From assembly GCA_050613775.1 (NCBI GenBank), contig JBODTK010000129.1, positions 434,001 to 485,030 on the forward strand: a stretch of DNA of 51,030 bases, read 5' to 3'. The DNA comes from Neocallimastix sp. 'constans'. Its lineage: Eukaryota. The notes beneath the pieces are model-generated. The model was not told the origin of the DNA. It did not search any database and was given only the letters and a program-made list of their open reading frames with translations. A program made the position numbers and the translations under genes. Shown here one piece after another: positions 1,810 through 43,430 of the stretch. Within the stretch, counting starts at the first letter, position 1; the number at the start of each line of letters is the position of its first letter.

Positions 1810-1908
1810 TGACTCATTATAATTTTACTTCGTTGAAAAATCATTCAATTTCAATTTTTAAATAAGTAAATAAAAAAAAAAAAAAAATTAAAATATTTAA
1901 AATTCAAA

Positions 1909-5467: not shown

Positions 5468-7619
5468 AGCAATTCAAAATTAAAAAATAAGAATTCAAGG
5501 GAAATAAAAATAAAAACAAATAATACGAAAAATAATACAAACCTAATGAATCAAATATATCCTGAAAACAAAATAATTGAAAACAAAAATCCTGAAAATC
5601 CTGACAAAAATCCTGTAAAGTTTGATAAAAATCCTAAAAAAAATCATGTAGAAGTTATAAATAAATATAAAATTAATATAAAAAATAATTATTCAGAAAA
5701 TAATCAAAAATCTAATTTACATTTAACTTTTAAAAATAAAGACAATAAAAAATTTTCAAAAGATAAAAATTTATTAAAATCGTATAAATTAAAAAATAAT
5801 TTAATTAATTCAAAAAATAAAATTAATGAATCAAAAATGGACAATAATAAAAATTTTGAGAAGTTTAAAATAATTAATAATGATTCGCTAAATTTTAATA
5901 AAAATAAAAGTAGAGAATATGAAACAATAATGCATGAAGGAAAAAGAAAGGTTAAAAGTTTAAATAAAAATGCTAATGTAAATACAAATGTAGAGGAAAA
6001 TGTGGAAGGAATTAACGTAAGTGACTATAGAGGAGAAATACAAGAGAACAGTAATAAGAGAAAAAGGGAATGTTTAACGACAATTAACCAAATCAGAGAA
6101 CCAAATTCATATATGGAAATCTTCAAAAGAAAAGACAAAGAAAAAATGGATAAGTGCTATAGAAAACGAATTAAATAATATGAAAGAAAGGAAAGTATTT
6201 AAAAAGATTGAAAAGGTTCCTGAAGGCGCTAATATAATCGATTCCAGGTGGGTTTTCAAAATTAAAAGAGATAGTGAAGGAAAAATCGATAAATATAAAG
6301 CAAGGCTAGTAGCAAGAGGTTATACCCAGGAATATGGAGAAGATTATAAAGAAACTTTTTCACCAACACTAAAGCAGGATTCATTAAGAATAATAATATC
6401 TATTGCTGCAGAAAACAATTTTAACATTCACCAAATGGATATAAAGGCAGCTTATCTATATGCCGATTTGAAGGAAGACATTTTTATGAAGATACCTGAA
6501 GGAGATCCAAATTTTGGAAAAGGATATTTTAAGTTACAAAAGGCTTTATATGGACTAAAACAGGCTGCAAGAGAATGGAATAATAATATTAGTACTACTT
6601 TAAAACATTTGGGATTCTATGAATTAGTCAGTGAACCGTGTATTTTTATTAAGAAAAAAGATAATAAACTCGTGTGTGTTATAGGAGTATACGTAGATGA
6701 TTTATTAATTACAGGTAAAGATGATGAAATTAATAAAACAGTAAGACTAATTAAAGAAAAATACTCTGTAACTGATATTGGTAAAGCAAATTTTATTATA
6801 GGTATAAAAATAGAAAGGATTCCTAATGGTTACCTTTTACATCAAGAAAGATATTTGGAAGACATACTCGAAAAATTTGGACTAAAAGATTGTAAAGAAA
6901 TAGGAACTACCGAACCAAGTTTATCTGATAAAGAAGATGATGAAGAATTATTTGATCCAACAACGTATAGGTCCGCCGTAGGAAGTTTAATATATTTGGC
7001 TATCTGTACAAGACCAGATATTATGTTTTCTGTGAATAGAGTAGCTCAACATTGCAAAGAACCAAAGGTAAAAGATTGGAAAAACGTAATACAAATATTC
7101 AGATATTTAAAAGGAGCAAAATATTACGGTATTTTATTTAATGGAGAAAAATGTCTAAAAACGTATGTCGATTCAGATTATGCTAATGATAAAGAAACGA
7201 GAAGGTCTACGACAGGTTTTATCTATTTTATGGGTTCAGGTCCAACTAGTTGGTACTCAAAGCTTCAAAAGTGTGTAGCTACCTCCACCGCAGAAGCCGA
7301 ATATTATGGACTATGTGAATGTGCGAAACAAGCTTTATGGTATAGAAACATTTTAGGAGAAATAAAGGATCAAAGAGAATGCATAAAAATTTACATTGAC
7401 AATCAAGCAGCAATATATAACGCTGAAAATAATACAATAAACCCAAGATCAAAACACATTGACATTAAATATCATAAAATCAGAGAATTAATAAAGGAAA
7501 AAAAAGTAGAACTTGAATACATAGAATCAAAGAATAATAAAGCAGATGGTCTGACGAAATTTTTAAATAAATATAAAATGCAAAATTTTAGAAATAGTTT
7601 ATTATACAAATATAAATAA
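5468..7619 (+). pseudogene. pol: Copia Pol part 2: linker, reverse transcriptase and RNase H, interrupted by a one-base frameshift in the A-run at 6141-6146
   Basis: The frame continues past the TAA at 5465-5467. Removing one A restores EPNSYMEIF...KEKWISAIENELNNMK into the RT. Motifs: YKARLVARGY, HQMDIKAAYL, KALYGLKQA, YVDDLLI, YVDSDYA, STAEAEY, SKHIDIKYH, ADGLTK. Confidence 0.95.
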
Positions 7620-7986: not shown

Positions 7987-8693
7987 TTATTTAACTTTCG
8001 ATAATTATATATTAAATTTATTTATTACTTTATCTGTACTTGTTTCTTAGCTTAATGAAGATATTCAAGGGTTATAATATCTATAGATAATTTTTATTAT
8101 TTTTATTATTATTATTATTTAAACTCATAGATAAACAGATTAACCCTTTAATTATATATATATTTTTAGTTTTGTAGTAGGCATTTGAGATTTGATAATA
8201 ATTATTTATATAATCTATTATATATAATTAATATTTATTTTTAAAAAAAAGTAATATTATAAATCATATAGAAAATTGATAAGGACTTGTCATATCCAAT
8301 AAAAAATTTTTGATAAGAATTCAATTTAAATTATAATATAATTATCATTTATTGTAATATATTTATATATATTGATAACTATATATATTAATATATGATA
8401 ATCATATAAATATATATATATTAAGAAATTTATAAAATATATATATATATATGAATATTAATATAAATACAAAGTAGTTTTTCTTCAAAAAGTAAAATAT
8501 CAATCAATATTATATAATTAACAAGCATAATTCAATATAACTTTTATTTTATTTTTTTTTAAATTTTAAAAGTGTATTATTAAAAAATAAAAAATTTTTT
8601 GTGCTCTTCATTTCGTAAATTTTATAATAATTTCATTTTAAGAAATAAAAAACAACTTTAAATATTTTTAAATAAAAAAAAAAAAAAAGAAAA

Positions 8694-9086
8694 ATGTCTG
8701 CTACTACTGCTACTCGTCAATATCGTCATGCTATTCCAACCATGATGAGACTCAAAAGAGAACCTTCTTGTAAAAATATGGTTTTTAAACCACAGACACC
8801 ATTTCCAAATGCTGAAACGGTCCTTCATAAAATAAAGAGTGAAGGTAATATGAATCCTAGTGCTAAAGATCTTGCCAATGCTTTATTCAAGGAATGTAAT
8901 AAATGGTTAAAAGCGAACGGTTTTAAGGAGTTTATTCCAAGTCAAGATCTTGGATGGACTTTAAAAAATGGTATTATTTCTCGTCCAGGAGCTAAAGTAT
9001 GTTTTGATGCTAAATCCATTTCAAGACAACAATCTGCTCAAAGAGTTTTATCTGAAACTATTAAACATAATAATGCTCAAATATAA
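8694..9086 (+). CDS. Uncharacterised 130-aa basic protein, tandem paralogue 1 of 5
   Basis: Intact intronless ORF with GC well above its flanks and A-rich start context. Four paralogues with many synonymous differences lie downstream. Confidence 0.92.
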   Translation: MSATTATRQYRHAIPTMMRLKREPSCKNMVFKPQTPFPNAETVLHKIKSEGNMNPSAKDLANALFKECNKWLKANGFKEFIPSQDLGWTLKNGIISRPGAKVCFDAKSISRQQSAQRVLSETIKHNNAQI

Positions 9087-12000: not shown

Positions 12001-12806
12001 TGATTAAAATTTCTTAATCATTATTATCATTAATCATTAATAGTAGAACCACATAATTAATTAAATTAGATTTAAAAATCAAATAGTTTAGTTTTAATTT
12101 ATAGATTATTAGATTAATCCTTGAATTTTATTATTTTATATATATTTACAAATATATATATAAGTTTAATTTTCAAATGAGGTGAAAGACTGATAAATAA
12201 TTATAACTATAAATAATTTTTTTATTTTTTATTAAAAAAAAAAAAAAAGTACTGGTTTAATATTTTCTAAATAAATTTTGATAACGTTGAATATATAAAA
12301 TTAAAATTTTTGATAAGAGGATATATAGATAACAATATATTAAAATGTATTAATACATATATTAAAATATATTATAATATAATATTAATTTATATTATCA
12401 AAATATTAATATAATAAATTTATAAAATTTATTTAATTTAAATTAAAAAATTTGCTTTTTTTTTTTTTTTTTTTAGGATTTTTATATTAAAAATGATATG
12501 AAAAGAAAACAAAAAAAAATTATATAAATAGGAAGAGCTTTTTCTTTTTAAAATTTAATCACTGTGATTTTAACATTTATTAAATTATTATTTCTTTTAA
12601 AAGAATAATTAAATTTTTTTTTTAAAAAAAAAGGAGAATAAAATTATCTTATATTTAATAAAATATAATATATATATAAAAGCAAAATTATTATTATTAT
12701 TATTATTATTTCTATTATTGCTACTATTTATAATTAAATAATAATTATATTTTAAATTTAAAAGTATTATTATCTTAAAAAAAATACATACATATATATA
12801 TATAAA

Positions 12807-13190
12807 ATGGCTTCTACTCGTCAATATCGTCATGCTATTCCAACCATGATGAGACTCAAAAGAGAACCTTCCTGTAAAAATATGGTTTTTAAACCACAGA
12901 CGCCATTTCCAAATGCTGAAATGGTCCTTCATAAAATAAAGAGTGAAGGTAATATGAATCCTAGTGCTCAAGATCTTGCCAATGCTTTATTCACGGAATG
13001 TAATAAATGGTTAAAAGCGAATGGTTTTAAGGAGTTTATTCCAAGTCAAGATCTTGGATGGACTTTAAAAAATGGTATTATTTCTCGTCCAGGAGCTAAA
13101 GTATGTTTTGATGCTAAATCCATTTCAAGACAACAATCTGCTCAAAGAGTTTTATCTGAAACTATTAAACATGATAATGCTCAAATATAA
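12807..13190 (+). CDS. Uncharacterised 127-aa protein, tandem paralogue 2 of 5
   Basis: Intact ORF. I count 7 nucleotide differences from copy 1 downstream of the variable N-terminus. Confidence 0.92.
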   Translation: MASTRQYRHAIPTMMRLKREPSCKNMVFKPQTPFPNAEMVLHKIKSEGNMNPSAQDLANALFTECNKWLKANGFKEFIPSQDLGWTLKNGIISRPGAKVCFDAKSISRQQSAQRVLSETIKHDNAQI

Positions 13191-16323: not shown

Positions 16324-16569
16324 TTAAAAACATTCTTTTATGTAAAGAAGAACAATTGAAATAAAATTTTATATACTATTTAAAAAATAAAAGATAATTA
16401 ATTAATAAAAAAAAATTAATATATCACATTAAAGAAATTGAATTTTTTTTTTTTATTTTATTAGTTTAAAAAAAAAATTAAAAGTTTTTGATACAAGAAA
16501 AAAAAAATTATATATAATCTAGTTAAAAAAAAAAAAAAACCAATAATAATTATAATAATAGTAATAAAA

Positions 16570-16962
16570 ATGTCTGCTACAACCGCTACCCGTCAATATC
16601 GCCATGCTATTCCAACCATGATGCGTCTTAAAAGAGAACCCTCTTTTAAGAATGTTGCTTTTAGACCTCAGACTCCATTTCCTAATGCAGAAATTGTTCT
16701 TCAAAAAATAAAGAGTGAAGGTAATATGAATCCAAGTCCTCAAGATCTTGCTAAAGCCTTATTCATTGAATGTAATAAATGGTTAAAAGCGAATGGTTTT
16801 AAAGAATTTGTACCAAGTCAAAATCTTGGATGGACTTTAAAAGATGGAGTGATTTCTCGTCCAGGAGCTAAAGTTTGTTTTGACGCCAAATCCATTTCAA
16901 GACAACAGTCTGCTCATAGAGTTTTATCGGAGACCATTAAACATGATGGAGCTCAAATATAA
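16570..16962 (+). CDS. Uncharacterised 130-aa protein, tandem paralogue 3 of 5
   Basis: Intact ORF with the same core (RQYRHAIPTMMRLKR...PQTPFP...KIKSEGNMNPS...ECNKWLK...LGWTLK...SRPGAKVCFDA). Confidence 0.92.
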   Translation: MSATTATRQYRHAIPTMMRLKREPSFKNVAFRPQTPFPNAEIVLQKIKSEGNMNPSPQDLAKALFIECNKWLKANGFKEFVPSQNLGWTLKDGVISRPGAKVCFDAKSISRQQSAHRVLSETIKHDGAQI

Positions 16963-19610: not shown

Positions 19611-21066
19611 TTTTCTGTATTTGTATTATTTTGATTTAATAAATTAATTATCAATTTAAATTAATTTACTTGTTATCAATTTTCACATAAAACCCTACAA
19701 ATTTTTAAAATTTGTAAAATATTTTAATAATTCCTTTAAAAATATATATATATTTTTTCCATTTTATAATTAATTAATTATTAAATTCTAATTATGATCA
19801 TATATAATATATTTAATTATTTTTATATTTTATATCGATTTATAAAAGTCCTAATATTAAAAATAATAAAAAAATTATTATTATTATTATTATTATTATG
19901 ATTTTATAAATTTAATTAGTCAATTTACATTCTTTTTTTCTACTTAAACTTTTTTTTTTCCTAAGAAGTAATTATCTATTAGTAATAAAATCTAATCTTA
20001 ACATTCATAATAAAATAATTACAATTAATTTCTAATATTATATATAATAATAATTTATAAAATAATATTTATATGTCTATAAACATTTATATATATATTT
20101 TTTTCTCTTTTTTTAAAAATAAAAACTTTTTGATGACTTTTTGAAATATGAATTTTAAGTGTAACTATAAATTTTATAAATATTTTATAGATTAAATCGA
20201 TCATTTTATAAATTAAAATATGAATGGATAATCCATTTTGAAAAAAAATAAAAATAAAAATAAAAATAATTTAATTATTTTTTTAGATTTTGATAAAAAA
20301 AAATTATTTATATTCTATTCTATATTATATTATATTATATTATATTATATTATATTATATTATATTATATTATATTATATTAATTTATTTTAATTTTAAA
20401 AAAAATTAATTGATAATAATAATAAAAAAAGTCAAAATTTAAATTTGAAAATGTTATTATTATTATTATTATTATTATTAATCTATTTATTTATTTTTTG
20501 ATAAAATTTAATTTAAATTCAATCCTAATAAAAAAAAAAGTTTGATTAACTAATTTATCAAATTTATTTATTTATATTTAATAATATTTATTTATATTTA
20601 ATTATATGTATTTATTTATATTTAATAATATTTATTTATTTATATTTATATTTAATAATATTTATCTATCGAAAATTCAAAAAAAAAAAATTATAAAATT
20701 AAAGTTTGGAAAATGAAGATATTTCCTAGAAATAACAAAAACAATAATACCATAAATTAAAAAAAAAAATATGAATAACAATAATTTTTTTTTTTAATAT
20801 TATTATGTGATAATTTTTTTTAAGATAATAAAAAGATAAAAAAAAAACATATAAATATGAATAAAATCTTTTTAAAAAGTTTTTTTTCTCATTTATTATT
20901 AAATATAATTTTAAAAAATATTTTTTTATATAAAGTTTAACATAAAACAAAAAATAATAAAAATAATAATATTTTATTATATTTTTATTAATTGTAACAA
21001 AATCATATTTATTTTTTTTAAATATTTATAATTTAATTTATTTTTATATATTTATATATAAAAAAA

Positions 21067-21459
21067 ATGTCTGCTACTACCGCTACTCGCCAATATCGTC
21101 ATGCTATTCCAACCATGATGCGTCTCAAAAGAGTATCCTCTTTAAAAAATGATGTCATAAAACCTCAGACTCCATTCCCTAGTGCTGAAATGGTTCTTCA
21201 AAAAATTAAAAGTGAAGGTAATATGAATCCAAGTACTCAGGACCTTGCTAATGCCTTATTCATTGAATGTAATAAATGGTTAAAAGAGAATGGTTATAAA
21301 GAATTTATACCAAGTCAAAATCTTGGATGGACTTTAAAGGATGGCGTAATTTCTCGTCCAGGAGCTAAAGTTTGTTTTGATGCAAAATGTATTTTAAGAC
21401 AACAATCAGCACATAAAACTTTATCCGAAACTATTAAACATGATAATGTTCAAATTTAA
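21067..21459 (+). CDS. Uncharacterised 130-aa protein, tandem paralogue 4 of 5 (most divergent)
   Basis: Intact ORF with the same core and private changes (RVSSLKNDVIK, KCILRQQ). Confidence 0.92.
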   Translation: MSATTATRQYRHAIPTMMRLKRVSSLKNDVIKPQTPFPSAEMVLQKIKSEGNMNPSTQDLANALFIECNKWLKENGYKEFIPSQNLGWTLKDGVISRPGAKVCFDAKCILRQQSAHKTLSETIKHDNVQI

Positions 21460-23116: not shown

Positions 23117-24146
23117 TTATTTAATCATTAAATTATTCTTTTAGAAAAATATTATTAATAAGTTAGATAATGATTAATACTTAAATATCAACCACAGAAA
23201 AATTGAATTCCCCGATTTTTCAATTTATATTTTTTTAATTTTTTCATAAATTATAAAAAAACCGACTGAAAAAAATAAATAAATAAAAATACAATAAATA
23301 AATAAATAAATACAAATAAATAAATAAATAAAAATAAATAAATAAGAATAAATAAATAAATAAATAAAAATAAAATATTAAATAAAAATATTAAATAAAA
23401 TATTAAATATTAAATGTAAAATATTAAATATATATAGAAATATAATATATATATTATTTATTTTTTAATGATAATTATTTATTAATTGATAACATAAAAA
23501 AACAGAAAAAAAAATTATATTTTTTTTATTTTATGATAAAAACGAACAAAAAAATTTTTAATATAAATTTGTATTAACCAATATCTAATATATTATAATA
23601 ATAAATTCTTATTTTCTTATCAAAAAAAAAAAAAAAAAAAGAAAAAAAATTTTTTTTTGATAAAATATTATTTTTGGATCAAAATCATTATTAAAAGATA
23701 TTTTATTTAGAGAGAGAGAGAAAAAAGAAATATATATATAGGTGTCAAAGTTTTAAATTCTTTTAATCCATTTTTATGACCTTACAGGCATTTTATTAAA
23801 TAATAAAATTGAATATTTATATATATTATTATTATTTTTTTTAAAAAAAAATAAATAATATAAAAATAATTAAAAGAATAAATTATTTAATAAATTCTTT
23901 ATAAAAATAAAATAATAGTAATAATAATAATAATAATAATATTAATAGAAATAATAATAATAAAAATAAAAAAAAAATAAAAAAAAATAAAAATAAATAA
24001 AAAAAAAAAAAAAGAGAAGGGAAAAAAAAATAGATAAAACAATATAATATATATATAAATATTTGATTTTATTATTATATATAAAGTTTTTAATTATAAA
24101 ATAAAGTTAAGAATTTTTTTTTATTTTATTAAAAGTTAAAAAAAAA

Positions 24147-24554
24147 ATGTCTGTTAGTGCCAAAAAAACGACTAAAACTACTCGTCAATATCGTCATGCT
24201 ATTCCTACTATGATGCGTCTTAAAAGAGAACCTTCTTTTAAGGATGTCGTTTTTAAACCTCAAACACCATTTCCAAATGCTGAAATGGTTCTTCAAAAAA
24301 TTAAAAGTGAAGGTAATATGAATCCAAGTACTCAGGATCTTGCTAACGCTTTATTCATCGAATGTAATAAATGGTTAAAAGCGAATGGCTTTAAAGAATT
24401 TGTACCAAGTCAAAACCTTGGATGGACTTTAAAGGATGGTGTGATCTCTCGTCCAGGAGCTAAAGTATGCTTCGATGCTAGATCCATTTCAAGACAACAG
24501 TCTGCTCATAAAATTTTATCGGAGACCATTAAACAAGATGGTGTTCAACTCTAA
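24147..24554 (+). CDS. Uncharacterised 135-aa protein, tandem paralogue 5 of 5
   Basis: Intact ORF with the same core and a longer N-terminus (MSVSAKKTTKTTRQY). Confidence 0.92.
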   Translation: MSVSAKKTTKTTRQYRHAIPTMMRLKREPSFKDVVFKPQTPFPNAEMVLQKIKSEGNMNPSTQDLANALFIECNKWLKANGFKEFVPSQNLGWTLKDGVISRPGAKVCFDARSISRQQSAHKILSETIKQDGVQL

Positions 24555-25957
24555 AATTTTTATTTTATCCAATATATATATATTATAAATATAAATATAT
24601 ACATATAAATATAAATATATATATATATTATAAATATAGATATATATATAAATATATGTTTATATAACAATGAATATTTTTATATAACATTTTTATTATT
24701 ATTTCTAAAAAAAAACAAAAAAAGAAAAAATAGTGATTATCAAAAACCAGAATAAAATATTTTTTTTTTTCATTTTGGTTTGGTAATTTTAAGTCATTGG
24801 TTTTAATTCTCTTATGAAACCATTTTTTTTTTTTTTTTTTTTTTTTTATAAAATATTTCATTTTGAACAAATATGGTTTTTAAAAATCAAGAAAAACTGA
24901 ATATTTTCTATCAATTTATATATAAAAGAAAATTAATATATTTATTATTAACAAAAAAACAAAAATATATATTTATATACATTTTACTAAATATTAAAGG
25001 AATTATTGATAGAAGTTAAAAATATTTTAATAAAAAATACATATGATAATAATAATAAATTAAGTTTATATTTAAAATATTGTAACACTGAAATATTTAA
25101 AAAAAAAAAAAAAAAAAAAAAAAATTATATTATTAATAATAGAATCATTCGAATGATAAATTTTTTTTTTATTATTTAGAAAAAGAAAACAAAACAAAAC
25201 AAAGTAGAAATCAATATATATAAAATTTTATTATAAAGTTATATCTCTTAAAATAGATTAATATATAATTTATTTTTATGTTTTCAAAAATTACAAATAT
25301 AAAAAAAAAATAATAATAATAAAAAATTAAAAAAAAAAAAAATTAAAAAAAAAATAAAAAAAAAAAAATAAAAATAAAAAAAAAATAAAATATAAAAGAA
25401 ATAAAAGATACAAAAATTTTTATTTTATTTTATTTTATTTTATTCTATTACAAAAGAATATAATAAAAAAAAAGCAGTCTTTATTGTTATAAAATTCAAT
25501 TGATGTTTTAAAGAAATAGTATTAAAATGTTGAAAAAAAAATTTTTTTTTTTTTAATAAAGTTATATATATATTTTTTATTATTATATCAAACTATTATT
25601 TATTAATGTTTTTTTTTTTTAGCAAATTATTTCCCTATTTTATTTGAATTTATCTTAATTTATATATAAATTAATATAGATTCCTTTATAATAATTTGCA
25701 AAATTATTTTAAACAAAATAATAAAATCTATTAGCTTTATAGATCTAGCTTATAAATATTTATTTTTATGTAAATTTTAAATACAGTTGTTTTTATCTTT
25801 CTTTTATCCTTTCTAATGTTTGATCAAAATCTTTAGATTTCATTAATAACCTTTTTATTATAACATGTATATTTATATTATCTCTACCTTTTCTTTTTTT
25901 TTTTTTTTTATTTATTTATTTATTTGTTTATATATATATCTTTATATTTAAAAAGAT

Positions 25958-28900
25958 ATGTTTCTGAGGGGATCAGCAAATAGTATAATAATAAAATTTT
26001 TCCATTATTTTTCAATTTATATGAACATTTATAGCTTTATTTTTATCCATAACCTTAATTCTTGGTCCCCTAGTAAACTAATAGCTCAAGTAATTAGTAA
26101 GATCCTTAACTACTATGAAAATATTCCTTATATTAAAAAACTTTTTTCTCCAAGGTATGGCTCATACTTCATTATAAGGATTAATAAACACAAAAATGAT
26201 CTCAACTTTTTCGAAGTTTTAAGTTTCTTAAGAGAAAAAATTCTTGAAACAGCTAAAATTAACTGGTCCTTGTGTAATAAACTTAAACAAGAGAACAAGT
26301 CAAGAAAATCTAATAAATATGATGTTGAACTTCATCCTATGGCAAAAGATTTTTTTTCCAGCCATCTAAATTCAAATTCTTCTTTCTTTAATATCTGTGT
26401 TAGTTGGAATATTAATGGTTGGAATACTGAAAAGCGTGATAGTATTTTATACCTCAACTCTACTTTTAAACCTATATGTATAAGAAACTGGAAAAAGTAA
26501 ATATCTTCCAAAAGATGTTTCATCACCATTAATTCCAAATTACAACTCAGTTTTCCTTAGAGCTAATCCTAAAACCACCGGTATGAGAGGACTCCTTATT
26601 GGCGTTCATTCTTCGTGCTCTTTCTTCCAAGAACCGTTTTTATACAAATATATCATTTCAGTAAATATTACTTCTTTATGGAATCAAAAATGTACTATTG
26701 AAAATATCTACTTTCCTCAAAGTAAAATGGAAGGAAGCAAGACTAGTTTGCTTTTGATGAACTTTCTCAGTGGTTACGTTTTCACAATAGAAAAAAAAAA
26801 TGTTCCGGCTGTCCTAGTTGGTGATTTTAACATGTCATTAACGAAAATTAAATCATACATTTCAAATAATTTTTACTAATTGGTATATTGCTCACTTATA
26901 TGGTAATCAATTTACTTATGCCAAAGGTACTAGATCATCTTGCATTGATGATGTCATCTATAATGAGGCTTTAGAAACTCATATTAATAAGACATCGGTT
27001 TGTACTTCATTTTATGGTATTTCTGATCATGAACCTATTTTGCTTTCTTGCAACCAAGTTCTTTCCGATGGCTTTACAAGGCCTGCTAAAGTTTTTAAAT
27101 GGTCTACACATATTTGTAAAACAAAAAATTCAGATATTTTATCACATAATTATTTTTCATTCTTAGCAAATGACCTCGATTCTCATTACAATTCGCTTAC
27201 TGCTGATGAAATGGTAGAAAAATTTATCAATACAGCAAATAATATCGGGAAAGATATTAAGGCCTTCATTCCATCAAATTTAAAAAGCTCTGCTTTTCGT
27301 TGTCCTTATTACATTAAAAAACTGTCTCATGAAAAACATATTACAATTAGAAATATTAAGCCTTACTTTAACTGTGAAAATGTTGATAATTACCTTGAAC
27401 AATTTAATAAATATGAAAAACTTTGTAAATTAATCAAGAAGACAAAGAGTAAATTTCATTCTGTTAGATATAAGGCTAATAGAGTAAAAATCAATAATTA
27501 TTTTTTGAATTAAGATTTCAAAAATGGTTGGAGATATTTAAAAAAAAAATGGCTAAACCATCTTATTCATCTACCTCACTTACTTATATTAAATCTAAAT
27601 TTCGTCAAGATATTATCTCTCCTACTAAGCAATTAGATAGATGAGCTGAATATTATAAAGATCTAGCGTCTGACCCCTCAGGTCACAGTCTTAATCGTAA
27701 CTACTGGAATCATGCTCTTCGAAATATTAGTCTTAGATCCTCTGCTTGGAATATTAACGGTCCAATAACAATTGAAGATATTAAAAAAAAAACTATTTCA
27801 TCAATGAAAAACAACAAAGCACCCTGCCCCTATGGTATCCCGATTGAATTCTACGAAGCTCTTTTCTACAATGAAGAATTACTAGAAACACATCCTGTTG
27901 CTGAAAACTGTCTTAAATTGATATTTAATAAAATCTGGAATGGGTCCTTTTCTAAAAAATGGAACTCAGCTTCTATTGTATCTATCCCTAAGAAAGGTGA
28001 CCTCTCAGATTGTAGTAACTATCGAGGTATTTCTCTTATTAATGTTGGACTGAAAATCATTTCAAAAATTATAACAGATAGAATATCTACTTACGCACTT
28101 ACACACAATTTCATTAGACCTGAACAATTTGGTTTTTCGCAACCTTGAAGAATGCATTAGTTTATTCATTTTCGTTAGAGAAATTTGCCAAAGAAGAAAA
28201 TTTCAAGGAAAATTCATATATTTATCTTTTTTAGATCTTAAAAAAAGCTTATGATTCAGTACCTATATTTTAATATTCTTACTAAATTATATCATTATGG
28301 AGTCAGTGGTAAATGTTTTGATTTTCTTTGTAATTTATATACTTCACCTAAAGCACGTGCTTGATTTGCTTCAATGTTATCAAATGAATTTCCTATTAAA
28401 AGAGGTGTTCGTCAAGGCTGTCCATTATCTCCGATCTTATTCAATTTATTCATCAATGATATATTAAATGACTGTGAAAAGTATGGTGTTAATATTGGAA
28501 GAAAAAAGTGTTGTGGTGAACTCTTTGCTGATGATGTTGTTCTCATTGCTCCGAGTGCAAAAAAATTAAGAAAAATTATTAAAAAAGGTACATAAATGGG
28601 CTAATTTAAATGAAATGACTTTTGGTATTGAAAAATTTGCAATTATGGTTATATAACCAATGAACTTCCAATCTCCTCCAAATTGTAGTGATTCAACCTT
28701 CTATTTAAGAATGAATACTATTTCAAAAGTTTCTAGTTATGCTTATCTAGGTATTCCTTTCTCAGATGATCTCTTATTAGAACACATTATATCTCACATG
28801 CATTTTATAGTTAGAAAATCCCTTCTTTCATTTACACGTTTCTTTTCAAATAAACTTATTCTTATTGTATACAAGAAAAAAGATCTTCAGTCCTTTTGTT

Positions 28901-30018: not shown

Positions 30019-31382
30019 TTAATTATCTTTATTAGTTAGAGTATCTTTTTTCTTATTATTAATATATGATCGAGATAGAATAGTGGAAGAGACATTAATT
30101 TCTGATAATGTATTTTGTGAATGAAGAGAATTAGAATAAATTGAATTGGTGGGTTGTGAGTAGAGTGAGGAACTTAAAATATTTACACCGGTATAATTCG
30201 ATGAAGCATTACTGTAGCTTAATATGGGCGATATCGTACTACTACTATTATTATTACTTTTAATGTAATTTGAATAATTTATATTACTATTACTATTATT
30301 ACTACTATTATTATAACTAAATGAATTTTCATTTATACTACTTATAACACTAAGATAATTTTTATTTATGGGTGTATTATTAGTATTACTATTACTATTC
30401 GTATTACTGTTATTACTATTATTATAATAACTATTATTATTATTATTAATGTATTGATAAAAATTGCTTGTGCCAAAATAATTTGAGGATGATCCCACTG
30501 AAGAAGCAGCATAAAAGTATTGTCTATCATTATCCATAGATTGTAATACTTGTTGAAAGCATTTATTATTTAAGCTGGCACTTTCTGCAAATTCATTCGC
30601 AAGATTCCTATATATTTATATTTATATTTATAGTTGCATTTATAGTTTTATTTATAGTTGTATTTATAGTTGTATTTATAGTTGTATTTATATTTATAGA
30701 AATAGTTATATTTATATTTATAGATGTGTTAAATAAAAATTAAAATTTATATATATTATAAATCCATTAAATTAATAATTAGTATAAATTATATATAAAT
30801 AATTAAATAATTAATATTTTGATTTTGATTGTATACTATGTATATATATATATATTTAAAGAAAGAAAAAAAGAAAACTTACGAATCTGTTGCACCAAGT
30901 TGTATTAATTTATAGATAAGTTTTCTTAGATTTGGTAATGTATTTTTCAAATTACTCACATTTTGTTTTATATGATTTAATAACTATAATTAATTTAATA
31001 TTTATTTTTTATTTTTATTTGTTGGTTTATTCATTTATTCATTTATTCATTTTTTTTTTTTATAAAATATATATATATATATAATTAATATATTTAATGA
31101 ATTAAATGAATAAAACATCAATTATATATAAATAAACAATTTTTTAAAATTAATATATTATATTATAATAAACTTATTTTACTTGTTCAATATTTTTATT
31201 TAAAAGAAAAACACCATAGATAAATCGATTATTATTTAATTTTTTGGTAAATAGGGGAAATCTATATATTAATAGAAATAAATAAAAAAAAAAAAAAAAA
31301 AAATAAAAATATAATATGAAAATTTTTATTTAGAAAAAATTTTATAAATTAAACAGAAATTAATAATAATAATAATAATAAT

Positions 31383-31463
<81 letters not shown>

Positions 31464-32044
31464 GTTATTATTATTATTATTATTATTATTTAAAAAAAAT
31501 TTATTTAAACTTTAAAAAATAAAAAATTTACTCGTTCATCGGTTGACATTCTATATTTAATGGATCAATAATGGTTGATCTTGATGACATATGCTTTATT
31601 GGGTATCTTAAAACAACATTAATATAATCCGCTATTATAATAATTAAATGACAGGTATATCCAAGGGCTGTTGATATATCATCTAAATTATAACCTTTTA
31701 TATATAAATGAATTTTTAATTTTAAAAAAAATAAAAAAAATTTTTTAATTAATAAATTTCAAAGATATATAAAAAAATAAAAAAATATATATATGTATGT
31801 AGGTATGTATATATTTATATGGTTTGAATTAAAAGCAAATACCATCATATATTGAATTTGGTAAAGGTATACCACATATAGTATATATTAATGGATCAGA
31901 TACAGACTAGTTATATTAATATTTATTTATGTTTTTATTCAAGAAATATTTATTAATATTTTTAATTCAGTTCTTAATTTATTTATTTATTTTTCTTTTA
32001 ATTCAATTTTTTTTTTTTTTTTTTTTTTGTTTTATTTTAATAAT

Positions 32045-32120
<76 letters not shown>

Positions 32121-34452
32121 GCTTTTCAAATATATATATATAATATTTGATTTAATAACTTACAGGCTCTATAGGATATATATTTAATAAATCTATCAAT
32201 AGTTCAGCGAGACGTTGATTACTCATTGCTCTAAGTTGATTTCTTTTTTGACTAAAAGAATATATTTATTTATATATATTTAAATAATAATAATATTATT
32301 ATTACTATGATTAATTTTTATTTATAAATATTAGAATATAATGAAGATTTATTTATATATAAATAAACTGTTTTAAAAAAAAAAAAAAAAAACATTGAAA
32401 ATAAATCTAGAGTTAATAATAATAATGATAATGATAATAATAATAATGATAATGATAATAATAATAATGATAATAATAATAATAATAATGATAATAATAA
32501 TAATTATAATTTTAATAATAATAAAAAAAAATTATTTTATTTTATTTTATTTTTTACGTCATTTCATTCTCAAATTCTTTTTTTATCTGTTCTAAATTAA
32601 CCATTTTTTGATCAAGTTCCATATTTTTTTTATCTAGTTTAGTACTTCTTGTGTCATTCGAAATTCTATATTCTTCTAATCTTCGAGTATCTAAGAATAT
32701 ATGAATATAATTTTTTTTTTTTTATTTTATTAATTAATACCATTATTATTACAATTATTAAATCTATATTTATCATAAAAATTATTATATACATTACTTT
32801 CTTCAATATTTAGCATACTAATAATCAATTGATTTTCCATTACTTTTGATTCTTCGTTATATTCTGTTCTTATAAAATCCTTTAATAATAATTTTTTTTT
32901 TTATTAATTATTAGTATAAATAAAAGTTATAGTTATGATAAATCTATTATATTTTTAATTTTATATGGATAAATATTTATTATATTATTATATTATATAT
33001 ATATATATAATTTTAATAAAATGGTATTAAAAAATAATTTGATAAATTACTAATTTATGTTTTTCTTTATATAATTTTAGTTTTTTTCTTAAGGCTTTCT
33101 TTTTATTTTCTAATTCTTCTTTTTTCTTTTTTAACTCTTCTTGGACTTTATTTAAACTATTTAATTTTATTAATTTATTTATTATTTATCAATTATATAT
33201 ATTATTTTTTTATATATATTTAAATTGGCTTTATATTTCTTTTATTTTATTAATTATTATTTACTTTATCAACATATTTGCTGAATATGATTTCTTAACA
33301 AGATTTTGATCTACTTTGTAAACATTAATTATATTACCCGATTCCTTTCTCAATTCCTTTATGTTGATTATATAATATATTTTTTTATAAATAAATAATA
33401 GTAAAAATTATAAAAAATATATATATATATATATATAATAATAGTATATTATTATTGAAATTCATATTTATAAAAAATAATATGATGATTAATAAGTAAT
33501 AACTATATATATATTAAAATTAAGATAAAAAAAAAAAAAAACAAAAGAAAAGTTTGTTAAATTACTGAACATTCTGGACATTGAATATAAAAACCATTAG
33601 TATATTCAAAAATCAAAGAATTCTTTGAAAATTCTGTTTTTAATTCAGTTATCTAAACAAGTATATACATATACATATTTTTATTATATCATATTAATAT
33701 AAAAGTTATAAATTTATATGAATAAATATATAAATATATATATATAATATGTATTATGATGACAAAATATCAAATTTTAAAATTATTTAATTTAAAAATT
33801 TAAAAAAAATAAAATAAAAAAAAAAAATAAATATAAAAATAAAAATAAAAATTATTATGTTCAAATGATATTATTAAATTACTCCTTAAGAATTAATAAA
33901 AATAATAATAAAAAGTATTACTAAGTAAATTGGATTAATTATATACAAATATGTTTCTCCATAAGAATTAATAAAAAATAATAATAAAAAGTATTATTAA
34001 ATAAAATGGATTAATTATATGAAATTTTGATTTATAATACCTCAGTTCCAATATACACCAAAAGTTCCCCTTCGATAATATTTGAAAATAGCAATATTGG
34101 ATTTTCATTGTCCTTCCCTGATATAATCCAAACTTTAATGATGAAATGTATTAAAATATAATTATTATTTTTATAGAGAAAAAGATAAAGATATATATAA
34201 TATATACAATATTAAAAATTAAAGATATAATAAATAAAAAAAAAAGTGGAAAATTTGAAATTAAGATTTTATAATGCATTTTTTATTTTTTTTATTTTTT
34301 TTATTTTTTTGAATGAATTTCAGAAAATATTTGATTAACATAAAAGTATATAGATAATATATTTGTTTAAAAAGGATATCAGATGATTGAATATTCATCC
34401 AAGAAGGAAACATTAATCTATCTAATGGATTCCAAGAAGGATTCTTTTATAT

Positions 34453-34492
<40 letters not shown>

Positions 34493-35227
34493 TTAATTTA
34501 TTATTAATATATTTTAATTTATATTTATTATGGAGAAAATTGTAAAATAAATATTTTTATTTATATATTAAGAATGTCTATATTTTTTTTTTTATTTAAA
34601 AATGATAGGTACCAATGAACTTTTTATTATATTACTTTTGAAAAATTCTTTTTGCTCTTCTTTATTGTTTATATTATTGATAGTAAAAAAAAAAATAATA
34701 ATAAATGAAATTGGAAATGTTTATATATTTAAAAAAATAATGATTAATAAAATAAATAATACTATAAAATATTATATAAATTATTAAGAATGCATTTTCT
34801 TTTTTTTATTCTTTTTTTTTTTTGTAATTTTTACCATCATTTGAACATAAAGTATAATAGATGCTAAATAAATCTTTTACTTCAGGTATTTTTTCTATTT
34901 GTCTTCCATAAATTGTTTTCAATTGTTTAATTCGAGGCTAATATTGATAAATAATTGAAAGAATTGAATTATTTATTTGTTTTCGTATTTTTATTATTAT
35001 TTTATTGGTTTTTTTTTTTTAAAAAAAAAATGTTATATAAAATGTATATAGATTTAAATTGAAATTTAAAATTATTATATATATATAATTATTATAGATA
35101 TAATTATTATAGGTAAATACAAAAATAAATGTTATATTTTGATTTTAAAAAATAAACATTTATATTTTAATTTTTTTTTTTTTTTAATTATTTATGTTAC
35201 CTTAATAATTAAAGGTTGTGGTAAATC
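30019..35227 (-). CDS. UVRAG: UVRAG/Vps38-like subunit of class III PI3K complex II; at least 16 exons, 5' end unresolved
   Basis: Hand-built, phase-consistent exon chain on the minus strand: 35201-35227, 34835-34937, 34613-34659, 34380-34443, 34041-34147, 33566-33652, 33265-33356, 33051-33156, 32798-32879, 32558-32690, 32164-32251, 31843-31906, 31532-31682, 31183-31261, 30883-30983, 30019-30607. The translation gives a C2-like region (YYTLC...EFFKSNIIKSSLNPSW...FIIKVW...NSLIFEYTNGFY), a coiled coil, then the UVRAG-type motifs IYPIEP, TICGIPLPNS, ISTALGYTCHL, LRYPIKHMSSRSTIID, FPLF...RFIYGVFLLNKNIEQL and TLPNL, and an Asn/Ser-rich tail. A further exon may lie at 35304-35338. The start codon was not found. 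Confidence 0.9.
34148..34379 (-). other. U12-type (minor spliceosome) AT-AC intron in the UVRAG-like gene, 232 nt
   Basis: On the minus strand the intron starts ATATCCTTTT and ends TTAATAC. Excision joins TCT G|AT TTC in frame (QSS-D-FIIKVW). No AG dinucleotide exists anywhere in the intron. Confidence 0.88.
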
Positions 35228-35545
35228 CTATAATAATGCATAGATATTATATTATTATAAAAAAAATATTCCATTATTAATGAATTTTAATGACATTTCA
35301 TACTTTAATATTTCCTTTAATTTCGTATAAAACATTATCTGTATATATATATATATATATTTTACTTCATGAATTTGACATAATGGAATAGTCATTTTTA
35401 TGTTTCATTTAAGAACAAAAAGTATTTATTGTTGATATAATATGTTTATTTATTGTTATATATTATAAAAATTATGATATTACTTATGTATAGTTTTTAA
35501 TTTAATTTGCCCTAAGTTTTCTTTTAATTCTCATTAATAAAAAGT

Positions 35546-36643: not shown

Positions 36644-37184
36644 GAACAAAATAGATAAAGGAAGTTGGTAAAAATAGATCTATAATTTTAGGGATTATGA
36701 TTGACTCTATGAAAATATTAGGCTACTGCTTTTTCAGCTTTGGAACTAATTTAAGGATTTTTGGGCTTTCATAGGCTCCAGAGTTTTTTTTTTTTTTTTT
36801 ACTTTTTTGATGAATTTATGTTGAAAGAACTGTTGTATATTAAAAAAATTCAGATTTTTTTTTTTTATTTCGGTCAGATTCCGGTATATATCTACAATTA
36901 ATACTAATTTTAGAACTAATATGGGACATAGAGAAACCTGATTGTCTAAATAAAACATAAACATAGGATATACGATGACCAGGATGTGGTATTGATGGAA
37001 TGCAATCTCCACCTAGTAGTCTGAATGTTCAAAATGAAGAAATCAAACTAAGCATAAGTAAATTGATAAGAGTTAACTAGAGATGAATGAATTAATTAAT
37101 GACAATTTCACTGTCCTCAGAAAATAAGTTTGAATAAATTAATAATAAAAGATAACCTTATTGACTCCAATTTTACATCATAAT

Positions 37185-37953
37185 ATTAAACAAAAATAAA
37201 ATAAAATAGAATAAAATAAAAAGTAGAATATTAAATAAGAAAGTACAGATTGAATAAAATAAAATAAAATAAAATAAAATAAAATAAAATAAAATAAAAT
37301 AAAATAAAATAAAATAAAATAAAATAAAAAGTAGAATATTAAATAAGAAAGTACAGATTGAATAAAATAAAATAAAATAAAATAAATAAATAGTTGAAAT
37401 ATAAATATAAGTACAGATTGAATAAAATAAAATAAAATAAAATAAAATAAAATAAAATAAAATAAAATAAAATAAAATAAAATAAAATAAAATAAAATAA
37501 AATAAAATAAAATAAAATAAAAAGTAGAATATTAAATAAGAAAGTACAGATTGAATAAAATAAAATAAAATAAAATAAATAAATAGTTGAAATATAAATA
37601 TAAGTACAGATTGAATAAAATAAAATAAAATAAAATAAATAAATAGTTGAAATATAAATATAAGTACAGATTGAATAAAATAAAATAAAATAAAATAAAA
37701 TAAAATAAAAAGTAGAATATTAAATAAGTAAGTACAGATTGAATAAAATAAAATAAAATAAAATAAATAAATAGTTGAAATATAAATATAAGTACAGATT
37801 GAATAAAATAAAATAAAATAAAATAAAATAAAATAAAATAAAATAAAATAAAATAAAATAAAATAAAATAAAATAAAATAAAATAAAATAAAATAAAATA
37901 AAATAAAATAAAATAAAATAAAATAAAATAAAATAAAATAAAATAAAATAAAA
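37185..37953. repeat. Compound satellite: (AAAAT)n punctuated by eight AAGTACAGATTG-containing modules
   Basis: Two module types (AGTAGAATATTAAATAAG-AAGTACAGATTG and AATAGTTGAAATATAAATAT-AAGTACAGATTG) are separated by variable AAAAT runs. Confidence 0.93.
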
Positions 37954-39979: not shown

Positions 39980-42620
39980 TTATCTTATGCAAAATAATTT
40001 AAAATATCTCTGACATATAGTCTCATATAAAGAAATATCAAAAATGTCACAGGCGTCATTGGAAATTATGGTATCATTTGAAACCTCACTAAAAGTATAA
40101 TTATTAAAAGTATTATCATTTTGTGTATTAGATGAATCAAATAAATTATTGGTAATTTTATTTGAGGATGTTGAAATTTTTAAAATTTTTATTTTTATTG
40201 TCATAAAAAATTTCATCCTTTTTTTTAAAAATTTTTATTATCCATAATTTTTTTAGAAATATATATAATTTTATGCTTATCATTAATGTTGTTATTATGA
40301 TTATGTGTTTCATTATTATTTAAAAGTTCATATGAAGATTGTAAAATTTTATCACATATAATTAAGAAAATATTATTTGAATTATTATTTGTTTGCTGAA
40401 CTAGGTTTTGATGATTTTATTTTACCCATTGTCTTTATAGGAATTTTTGGCTCAATTTTTGAAAAAAATTTTATTATTAAAACTTTTTCCACTTTCATCA
40501 AAATTGAAATTTTTGTCAATTTTTAATGATTTTTTCTTTGCCTATATTTTTAATAGGAAGAATATTTATTACATCAGGACTCATTGGGTTCTTTTTATCT
40601 TTTAAATTTATTTCATTTTCATTTTTCAATCAAGGATCTTTAATTTTATTATCAGTAATATTTATATTATTAATTGGAATATGGTGTATGAAATTTTTTT
40701 GAGAATTATTATTATTTTTATTAATATTTCCTTTTTAAAAAAATAATATTGTAATATCTTTTAAATTATTAGTTTTATTATTGTTAATTTCATTATTAAT
40801 TTTGAGTAAAAAATTAATTCCATTCGAATTGTTAATTTCATTTGAATTAATTTCATTTAAAAATTATCTTTTACAACATCATTATTTTCTTTTTTTATGT
40901 TAATGTCTTCTTCATTTATAATGTTATTTTCAATATTATTATTTTCATTTAAATTTTCATTTACATTACTATTTTCATTTAAATTGTTATTGTTAATATT
41001 ATTATTATTATTATTATTATTATTTTTATTGTTATTTTCAATTAAATTATTGTCTTTATTTATAATATTGTTATTGTTCATATTTAAATTGTTTACTTCA
41101 TTAAAGTTATTATCTTCATTTAAATTACTATTTTTCCTTTAAATATTATTGCCATTTAAGTCTATATTTCTAACGTTTTCCCCATCAAAGCCCATTTTTC
41201 ATAAAAGAGAAACAAGTGTCTTGAAAATTATTGCTTGAATATTCGATGTTTCCTTATTCTTCATCTATACATTCAATGTCTAATATAATTTATTTTTTCA
41301 ATTTTCTGTTCCATAATAATATATGAATACTTCTTTTTATCAAATCCAAGAAAAATACCTTTCCTAGAATTTTGTTTAAATTTTGATTTATGGGGATTTT
41401 GGTCTCTGTAGTAACATACACTTAAAAAAGTCCTTTGATGCTTTATATTTCCTTTTTTAATATAAAATACTTCATCAGGAATTAAATTATTGTTTCTTGA
41501 ATGTGGAATCATATTATTTATATGAAAAGTGTGTTTTATAACAAAATTCCAAATGTCTTCAGATAATTAGCCCAATACATGAGTATTTTACTAAATTTCT
41601 AAGTGTGTGATTAATTTTTTCAGCTTTTACGTTTATTTCTAGACATTAAGGAAGAGAATACATACTTTCAATGCCATTTTCTTTACAATGTTTTTTATCT
41701 TTTTGTTTTTATATTCCTTTCCTCCATCAGATTTAAATATTTTTATTGTATAGTCCTTGAATTGATTATTTAAATAAGTAAAGAATTCTATTATTATATC
41801 TGGAGCTTCAGCCTTTGATTGAGTGTAAATATCCAGACTTTTCTTGAGAATTCATCCATCATTGTAAAGAAGTATTTCTTGGTATTAATAGATGGTTATA
41901 ACCCAGAAATGTCTGAATGGATTATTTCTAGGAATTCTTTTGGAGTTTCTCCTTTATGAGATCCTTTCTTCATTTTAGAAATTTTTCAATCTATTTATGG
42001 AGGAGTTTTTACATCATGTAGATCTAGTTATTTAGGTAAATTACTTTGGTAAAAATGGCCTAATCTTTTTTATCATATTTCAATACTTTTATCATCTAAT
42101 TTTCCTACGTGCATTATACTATTTCTTATTGGTTAAGTACTATTGTAATTTTGTGTTTTGATAGGAAATTGATTATATTTAGATGATAAAAAAGACCTAG
42201 ATTATTTTTATTCTTATCCCATAATTTTAATCTTTTTCTTCATCAAAATCATCAGAAGAGTAAATTAATGATATAAATCCTGATTTTGCAAGTTATATAC
42301 CATTAATAAGATTTTTGTGAACATTTTTTGAAAATAAAACTTTTTCAAACTTAATATATTGTTAATTTATGAAACATTCATATGTTCCATATCCTTCAAA
42401 TTGGCAAATCGAACCGTTTACACAACACAACTTTATCAATTTATATTTGAAATTAACAAGTAAAGATTTATCATTTGTTACATGTTCGCCCTCACCTGGA
42501 TCATAAAACCATGTAACATCATCAGTTATTTCGTTATTATGATTAATATAATCAATAAATTTATTGCTTATGTCATCAAAATCATGAGTATATTTATAAT
42601 TGTTAAAAATAACCTTCAAT
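39980..42620 (-). mobile_element. Decayed copia internal fragment (protease, integrase, Asn-rich linker)
   Basis: WFYDPGEGEHVTNDKSLL (degenerate protease), LEIIHSDISG, FKSDGGKEY and IPHSRNNNLIPDEVFY...NSRKGIFLGFD, parallel to the intact element's VPHHGNNNKIPFEVFY...NSRKGIFLGYD. Many disruptions; no LTR seen. Confidence 0.85.
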
Positions 42621-42629
42621 AAATTATAT

Positions 42630-43430
42630 ATTCTCAGATGGAACTTTTTATATTGCACCTAAATTTAATTATCAAATAGAACTTATGTTAAAGATTTAAA
42701 TGGTTTATATACTGCTTTTGATATTAAAAAATTAAGAACAAGCTACTTATAAGATGTTATTTGAAGAACTAGAAAAAAAAAAGAATTATGTTATAATAAG
42801 TAACAAATAATAATATATATATTTATTATAAAGTGATTTCGAACTTCCTTTTTGTAAATCCTGAATATATAAATGATATTTATAGCAAAGTTAGGTGTGA
42901 AACAAATAATAATGACCAATTTTTGATATTTTTATGATATTTTTTTTTTAAAAAAAAAAAAAAAAAATTGTTTAAAAAATTATAAAATTTTGAATTATTA
43001 TAATAATATCGAGCATATAAAAAATAATGCATCAAAATCTTTCAATAATTATTTATATAATTTATTTTTAAAAAAAACCCTTCTTTTTATATATTAATAT
43101 ATGCATTAAAGCAAGAAGAATCTATATACCACAATGACTACAAAAAAAAAAGTGCAGAATTTAAAAAAAAAAATAAAAAATAAAATAAAACTGATAAAAT
43201 CAATGTTCTAATTGAAAAATACAAAACAATGGAATCCAAATTAATTGATGATAGAAGACCTAGATATGATATTGTTGAATTATGATTTAAATATTTAATT
43301 AATTTAAAAAATATAAATATTGATTTGGAGTAAATGATAAAAGTAATGATCAAATGAAAAAGATTATTCTAATTCTGTCGCAATTATTATTAATAATTAA
43401 AATTATTCTTAATTTAAAAAAAAACATATT
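42630..43430 (+). mobile_element. Mutator-like (MULE) transposase relic, copy A
   Basis: Begins GATGGAACTTTTTATATTGCACCTAAATTT (DGTFYIAPKF), then KNQEQATY-like and NNASESFNNYL-like segments. It is an inverted homologue of 44420-45420. Confidence 0.8.

What the first reader, a model, noticed from the sequence alone, without database searches (positions are those of the whole stretch)
34148..34379. AT-AC minor-spliceosome (U12-type) intron in a fungal-like UVRAG gene
Seen in the sequence: all other introns in the 16-exon model are GT-AG, but the exons encoding NPSWNPLDRLMFPSWMNIQSS and FIIKVWIISG can only be joined without loss by removing 232 nt that start ATATCCTTTT and end TAC. The intron has no AG, and its length is not a multiple of 3, so retention would frameshift. 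Established: RTATCCTT is the U11-recognised 5' splice site and AT-AC termini are a U12 subtype; the minor spliceosome is lost in most Dikarya and retained patchily in early-diverging fungi. Inference: this genome has a working U11/U12/U4atac/U6atac system, and standard gene finders would mis-annotate this gene. I recall UVRAG being listed among human minor-intron genes; if the position is homologous the intron predates the animal-fungal split, but this recollection needs checking. No textbook TCCTTAAC branch site is visible (only TTTTAAT next to the AC and TCTTTAT/TCTCTATAA further up), so the U12 snRNA may be divergent.
Basis: partly seen in the sequence, partly recalled or inferred. Interest (0 to 1): 0.88.

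Follow-up and report, generated by a model that had tools for sequence, protein, structure and literature searches.

The report
Real AT-AC intron in gut-fungus UVRAG
A rare intron with AT-AC ends is cut precisely out of the UVRAG autophagy gene of the gut fungus Neocallimastix, likely by the minor spliceosome already reported in this genus; the public gene model misses it, and UVRAG is not on the human minor-intron gene lists checked.

Summary
A 232-nt, phase-1 intron (minus strand, 34379-34148) starts ATATCCTTT, the exact U12 5' consensus, and ends AC. RNA contigs from 4 of 4 studies skip exactly these 232 nt. A full-length transcript contig gives 17 exons (not 16), with 15 GT-AG introns plus this one. 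The gene is UVRAG/Vps38 of Neocallimastix.

It is not new: minor introns and U11, U12 and U6atac are already published for N. californiae (129 minor introns). The recalled human link fails: UVRAG is absent from three human/mouse minor-intron lists in which the control genes were found. No textbook branch site exists; the best candidates (-72, -39) are no better than chance. Splicing by the minor spliceosome is inferred, not shown. The scan has noted similar introns in other early-diverging fungi, none in this gene. Verdict: new member of a known kind, low interest.

The parts
34148..34379 (-). Intron 5 of 16, 232 nt, phase 1, AT-AC ends (U12-type by its 5' splice site)
   Evidence: Skipped exactly in RNA contigs of 4 of 4 runs and in transcript contig L001
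34371..34379 (-). 5' splice site ATATCCTTT, 9 of 9 match to /RTATCCTTT
   Evidence: consensus from PMC2846911 passage
34148..34150 (-). 3' splice site TAC; the intron has no AG, and no other AC after intron position 133
34218..34225 (-). Best U12-branch-like 8-mer TCTTTAAT, A at -72/-73; candidate only, not above chance
   Evidence: pairing score 6 of 7 to AGGAAUG with G-U allowed; 258 of 2000 shuffles reach it
34184..34191 (-). Second branch candidate TCTTTATC, A at -39; candidate only
   Evidence: 5.5 of 7; 562 of 2000 shuffles reach it
34380..34443 (-). Exon 5 (64 nt), upstream of the AT-AC intron; part of the C2-like domain
34041..34147 (-). Exon 6 (107 nt), downstream of the AT-AC intron
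34444..34612 (-). Intron 4 (GT-AG, phase 0); aligns with human L90|N91, one end of the stretch missing from a marmoset UVRAG isoform
33653..34040 (-). Intron 6 (GT-AG, phase 0); aligns with human Q144|I145, the other end of that stretch
30019..35395 (-). UVRAG/Vps38 orthologue, 17 coding exons, 653 aa: weak C2-like N-terminus, coiled coil, PF10186/BARA-like region, Asn/Ser-rich tail
   Evidence: Model translates to P0001 with 1 difference in 653 aa; Pfam; profile hit to human UVRAG chains, E 2e-53

Best explanation
This is a real AT-AC intron that is removed exactly from the UVRAG/Vps38 transcript of a Neocallimastix gut fungus, and it is likely removed by the minor (U12-dependent) spliceosome. 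Shown: exact removal of 232 nt, a perfect ATATCCTTT donor, AC end, a frame that needs the cut, and a 17-exon gene whose other 15 introns are GT-AG. From published work on the sister species N. californiae: U11, U12 and U6atac genes and 129 minor introns. Inferred: U11 and then U6atac pair with the donor; U12 pairs through G-U wobbles with a degenerate, AT-shifted branch site (TCTTTATC at -39 or TCTTTAAT at -72; not resolved); the second step uses the terminal AC, the first AC or AG downstream of either candidate. Failed splicing would stop the protein at codon 130, before the coiled-coil and PF10186 regions, so UVRAG output would depend on this step.
For: Junction in 4 of 4 RNA runs from 4 studies and in L001 with 0 mismatches over 17 exons. 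Donor matches the consensus 9 of 9, versus 3-5 mismatches of 8 in the 15 other introns; joint chance about 1.7e-6. Phase 1 fits the known bias of minor introns (passage, weak evidence). No in-frame GT-AG pair exists among 4 donors x 5 acceptors around the junction; three in-frame GC-AG options would insert an intron-derived, lysine-rich stretch seen in no homologue. Minor introns and snRNAs are reported in Neocallimastigomycetes. [quoted passage not shown]
Against: No UCCUUAAC-like site lies in the usual window: the best score within -25..-8 is 4.5 of 7, and the best candidates at -39 and -72 are reached by 562 and 258 of 2000 shuffles. By the cruder score, 2 of the 15 major introns hold an equally good 8-mer somewhere. 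The exon ends in G at -1, a feature tied to major-spliceosome use of minor-like introns in PMC11347168, though that bias is reported not to hold for AT-AC introns. N. californiae has no high-confidence U4atac (0 above the Rfam threshold, 3 putative). No snRNA was tested in this genome. All RNA evidence is from assembled contigs, and no DNA reads were laid.
Confidence: 0.85

Rival explanations
1. Hybrid or 'minor-like' intron: the U12-type donor is read by U11/U6atac or shared with the major machinery, while the 3' end uses a degenerate major-type branch. It would be an intron partway through class conversion that cannot finish without changing both ends.
For: No canonical minor branch site; G at exon position -1; N. 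californiae has 264 minor-like and 1711 hybrid introns against 129 minor; only about 10% of expressed minor-like introns responded to minor-spliceosome inhibition in model organisms (PMC11347168 passage).
Against: The donor is a perfect consensus and both ends are AT-AC. The last 13 nt are not pyrimidine-rich in the major sense. The 15 GT-AG introns of this gene score no better against the same motif, so weak branch motifs may be normal in this very AT-rich sequence.
Confidence: 0.1
2. U2-type AT-AC intron, spliced wholly by the major spliceosome.
For: AT-AC ends occur in both classes (PMC7367187 passage); no U12 branch consensus is present.
Against: U2-type AT-AC introns carry a major-type donor beyond the AT (recalled: ATAAGT-like). 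This one has ATATCCTTT, unlike all 15 major donors of the gene.
Confidence: 0.03
3. Artefact: the ends are an assembly error or the wrong register (AT-AT or TA-CA), or the true mRNA uses another GT-AG pair, as in the deposited model.
For: The joint can slide 2 nt; no DNA reads were laid; the deposited model P0002 uses a GT-AG join 34834 to 34133.
Against: Two independent errors that also create a 9-nt consensus are very unlikely. All 4 runs and L001 include exons 4 and 5, which P0002 omits. The Piromyces and Anaeromyces models and another gut-fungus transcript keep those 42 residues.
Confidence: 0.02

Closest known systems
U12-type (minor) introns of Neocallimastigomycota: Neocallimastix californiae (129 minor introns; U11, U12, U6atac above the Rfam threshold; PMC11347168 text and Tables S4, S7) and Piromyces finnis (PMC10639083)
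   Same: Same genus; same class of donor; the machinery is reported in the sister species.
   Different: Whether this particular intron is in those catalogues could not be checked (the per-intron databases are online only, and the one N. lanati model seen omits it). Its branch site is weak.
Canonical U12-type AT-AC introns of animals, plants, Rhizopus, Phycomyces and Rhizophagus (PMC2846911, PMC10639083)
   Same: /RTATCCTTT donor, AT-AC ends, phase 1, a single minor intron among many major ones.
   Different: No UCCUUAAC within -40..-5. The host gene UVRAG is not on the human or mouse minor-intron gene lists checked.
Human UVRAG (PDB chains 9rx5_D, 7bl1)
   Same: Orthologous protein over human residues 31-458 (E 2e-53); fungal introns 4 and 6 align with human L90|N91 and Q144|I145, the ends of the 54 residues missing from marmoset isoform X9 (P0046).
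   Different: The AT-AC intron falls at human C112, inside that stretch (recalled as one 162-nt exon in human, not tested), and human UVRAG is listed with no minor intron.

Membership tests
U12-type AT-AC spliceosomal intron | Removed from the mature RNA at the stated ends | tested here: met
   4 of 4 RNA runs skip 232 nt; L001; 2-nt register ambiguity remains
U12-type AT-AC spliceosomal intron | 5' splice site /RTATCCTTT | tested here: met
   ATATCCTTT, 9 of 9
U12-type AT-AC spliceosomal intron | AT-AC terminal dinucleotides | tested here: met
U12-type AT-AC spliceosomal intron | Branch site pairing with U12 (UCCUUAAC-like) within about -40..-5 | tested here: inconclusive
   No exact consensus. 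Wobble-compatible TCTTTATC at -39 and TCTTTAAT at -72 rank first or joint first among the 16 introns but are reached by 562 and 258 of 2000 shuffles. The organism's own U12 sequence and weight matrix were not available.
U12-type AT-AC spliceosomal intron | U11, U12, U4atac, U6atac and minor-specific proteins in the genome | not testable with these tools
   No genome held; none in the window. Published for N. californiae: U11 1, U12 1, U6atac 2, U4atac 0 high-confidence and 3 putative.
U12-type AT-AC spliceosomal intron | Splicing depends on the minor spliceosome | not testable with these tools
   Needs knock-down or lariat data
Minor intron shared with human UVRAG (ancient orthologous site) | Human UVRAG has a U12-type intron at the same position and phase | tested here: not met
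   0 hits for UVRAG or ENSG00000198382 in supplements of PMC6717393, PMC6800510 (one of its files could not be searched) and PMC11347168; controls PTEN, VPS35 and two further ids found
UVRAG/Vps38 orthologue | Homology across C2, coiled-coil and BARA-like regions | tested here: met
   Profile hit to human UVRAG residues 31-458, E 2e-53; fungal and animal UVRAG-named homologues; PF10186 E 6e-7, below the curated cut-off for P0001 and above it for P0003

The most novel reading that the evidence does not exclude
A minor intron at a site that mammals lack, wedged between two major introns that fungi and mammals share, was gained within the fungal line (minor-intron gain is considered rare). It is spliced from a distal branch point about 72 nt upstream of the AC, meaning that gut-fungus minor spliceosomes have relaxed the tight branch-to-3'-end spacing known from animals.
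Probability: 0.12. Interest if true: 0.55.

Novelty: new member of a known kind. Interest (0 to 1): 0.22.

Why it matters
Mostly practical. It corrects a public gene model: the N. lanati protein lacks 42 residues of its C2-like domain. It also shows that annotation-based counts of minor introns in gut fungi miss AT-AC cases. It adds no new lineage to the map of the minor spliceosome. The open points are how a minor intron without a textbook branch site is recognised in a very AT-rich genome, and whether the site was gained in fungi or lost in animals. Both need a genome-wide set of such introns rather than this one.

Tried and rejected
Whole genome: none held, so no search for snRNAs or for RNPC3, ZCRB1 or SNRNP35/48. 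Rfam scan of the window: 0 matches at gathering score. Genomic DNA of relatives, to see whether the intron is conserved: metagenome contigs gave 2 loci of 327 candidate stretches, both transcript-like without introns; genome contigs 0 of 60; viral contigs 0 of 231. Conservation in Piromyces and Anaeromyces is therefore unknown; their intact protein models do not tell which intron type is there. Only 4 of the 24 listed runs were laid, so the junction in the cultured-organism runs is unchecked. Other minor introns in the window: of the 11 RTATCCT sites, only 34379 looks like a donor; the two other ATATCCTT sites lie antisense to retroelement coding fragments; 50233(+), 19079(-) and 12324(-) lie in AT-rich sequence and were not tested with RNA. 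Branch-site scoring was not above chance. Ten Glomeromycota-like homologues lack the whole N-terminal 160-185 residues; this includes transcript-derived ones and does not break at residue 91, so I rejected it as evidence of a shared minor intron. Paper searches: 'UVRAG' + 'minor intron' 0 papers; 'UVRAG' + 'U12' 16 papers, none relevant by listing; 'UVRAG' + 'exon 4' 36 papers, 15 listed, none giving the exon structure by listing; 'neocallimastigomyc' + 'minor spliceosome' 4 papers, the two surveys and their preprints. Earlier findings by place, relatives and sequence: nothing.

Full report
Observation. The window is very AT-rich (10-31% GC in 2-kb bins). On the minus strand, 34379..34148 is 232 nt long, begins ATATCCTTTT, ends TAC and holds no AG. 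Removing it joins the flanking exons in frame through a split Asp codon (phase 1, codon 91). Keeping it gives a stop at codon 130.

RNA evidence. A run search listed 24 runs from 21 studies that hold part of the gene region; I laid 4 of them. In all four (X2, X3, X5, X7; metatranscriptomes of four studies) one contig of about 2.1 kb covers both exons with no differing letter and skips exactly 232 nt. Its loose ends continue into exons 4 and 7. The joint can slide by two letters; of the three registers (AT-AC, TA-CA, AT-AT) only AT-AC places the consensus at +1. A further transcript contig, L001, maps to the window in 17 segments with 0 mismatches and gives 16 introns: 15 GT-AG and this one. 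These are assembled contigs, so they say nothing about splicing efficiency or rare variants, and no DNA reads were laid.

Chance. The donor matches the published U12 consensus /RTATCCTTT (PMC2846911, passages) at all 9 positions. The other 15 donors differ from RTATCCTT at 3 to 5 of 8 positions. With the base make-up of those introns, the chance of ATATCCTT plus AC at the RNA-defined ends in any of three registers is about 1.7e-6. No GT-AG pair among 4 donors and 5 acceptors around the junction keeps the frame; three GC-AG options do, but they insert intron-derived residues that no aligned homologue has.

The gene and the organism. A single exon found 6 proteins among 7 candidates: 100% identical to a Neocallimastix lanati protein (P0002) and to a transcript-derived protein (P0001, 653 aa), and 79-83% identical to Piromyces finnis, Anaeromyces robustus and two other proteins. 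My 17-exon model translates to P0001 with one difference. A profile of these six hits human UVRAG chains in the PDB over residues 31-458 at E 2e-53 and UVRAG-named proteins of other fungi, corals, a primate and plants (65 hits). The deposited N. lanati model lacks residues 54-95 of P0001. It matches a GT-AG join from 34834 to 34133 that jumps exons 4 and 5 and the AT-AC intron, and the weak C2 match of P0001 (E 0.042) is lost in it. So the predicted mis-annotation is real. The Piromyces and Anaeromyces models are intact at this place.

What is known. PMC10639083 (passages; supplement searched) states that Neocallimastigomycetes, including P. finnis and N. californiae, have minor introns and many or all minor snRNAs. 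PMC11347168 (passages, section 7 and supplement rows) gives N. californiae 129 minor, 264 minor-like and 1711 hybrid introns, and high-confidence U11 (1), U12 (1), U6atac (2) and U4atac (0; 3 putative). The central inference of the finding is therefore already in print for the genus. I could not test it in this assembly, since no genome is held and the window has no Rfam match.

The human link. ENSG00000198382 is UVRAG (PMC6011598, one passage). Neither the symbol nor the id occurs in the supplements of PMC6717393 (8 files, including the mouse/human minor-intron gene table), PMC6800510 (4 files searched, one could not be) or PMC11347168 (Table S8, 675 columns). The controls PTEN and VPS35 were found in the first two, and control ids at columns 17, 203 and 544 in the third. 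For PMC6717393 and PMC6800510 I saw only the search listing and supplement rows. The recollection is not supported. Counting by hand on the alignment, the intron falls at human C112. Marmoset isoform X9 (P0046) lacks the 54 residues between L90 and I145, and fungal introns 4 and 6, both phase 0, align exactly with those two ends. The flanking major introns thus look shared with mammals, while the AT-AC intron lies inside what I recall as one 162-nt human exon; a two-exon skip is not excluded by my calls. Gain in fungi and loss in animals are both open, because no genomic DNA of relatives could be fetched.

Branch site. There is no TCCTTAAC. Scoring pairing to the U12 sequence AGGAAUG (PMC5959240, passages) with G-U allowed and either A bulged gives TCTTTAAT (A at -72/-73, 6 of 7) and TCTTTATC (A at -39, 5.5 of 7); the best within -25..-8 is 4.5 of 7. 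Intron 5 ranks first of 16 over -100..-5 and joint first over -55..-5, but 258 and 562 of 2000 shuffles reach those scores, and by the cruder score two major introns hold an equally good 8-mer. The TTTTAAT beside the AC puts its A at -4/-5, which I judge too close. Published tools look within -40..-5 or -55..-5 ([PMC7367187, passages]), and in human about half of U12 branch points lie within 20 nt and half further out. The result is inconclusive. It does not show a divergent U12, which in N. californiae passes the Rfam threshold.

Mechanism and verdict. Most likely (0.85) U11 and U6atac read the perfect donor, U12 pairs imperfectly with one of the degenerate sites, and the terminal AC is the first AC or AG downstream. 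Removal and ends are shown; the machinery is inferred from the motif and from papers on the sister species. Rivals are a hybrid or minor-like intron (0.10), a U2-type AT-AC intron (0.03) and an artefact (0.02). The scan has already noted AT-AC introns with wrong gene models in Jimgerdemannia, Dimargaris, Basidiobolus and Rozella (unchecked notes), none in this gene or genome. This is a new member of a known kind in a lineage where the kind is published: interest 0.22. The boldest reading left open, a fungal gain spliced from a distal branch point, has probability about 0.12 and would deserve about 0.55.

Noticed in passing
window 1870-7616 (+): Ty1/copia-type retrotransposon: Pol_BBD, rve, SH3 and RVT_2 matches, broken into several ORFs.
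   Followed up: partly
window 8676-9083, 12762-13187, 16492-16959, 21037-21456, 24111-24551 (+): Five tandem copies, about 3-4.5 kb apart, of a gene whose first exon starts with a conserved 'RQYRHAIPTMMRLKR' motif. The four copies tested have no Pfam match at E 0.01. Unexplained local gene family.
   Followed up: partly
window 25952-28145 (+): Fragmented LINE-like element; weak RVT_1 match in 27645-28145.
   Followed up: partly
window 41276-42658 (-): Decayed second copia-like pol fragment (SH3_retrovirus, weak Pol_BBD).
   Followed up: partly
window 36843-37028 (-): GC-richer open frame about 1.5 kb upstream of UVRAG, probably an exon of a separate gene; no Pfam match. It contains ATATCCTA at 36971 inside the open frame, not tested as a donor.
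   Followed up: partly
window 32691-32797 (-): The deposited model P0002 also misplaces the donor of intron 10 and adds 19 residues that the transcript L001 lacks.
   Followed up: yes
P0014, P0015, P0021, P0022, P0024, P0025, P0033, P0036, P0037, P0040: Glomeromycota-like UVRAG homologues lack the whole C2-like N-terminus (first 160-185 residues of P0001); real loss or annotation failure not resolved.
   Followed up: no
window 37180-37950: Long (TAAAA)n array interrupted by a repeated 'AGTACAGATTGAA' unit.
   Followed up: no
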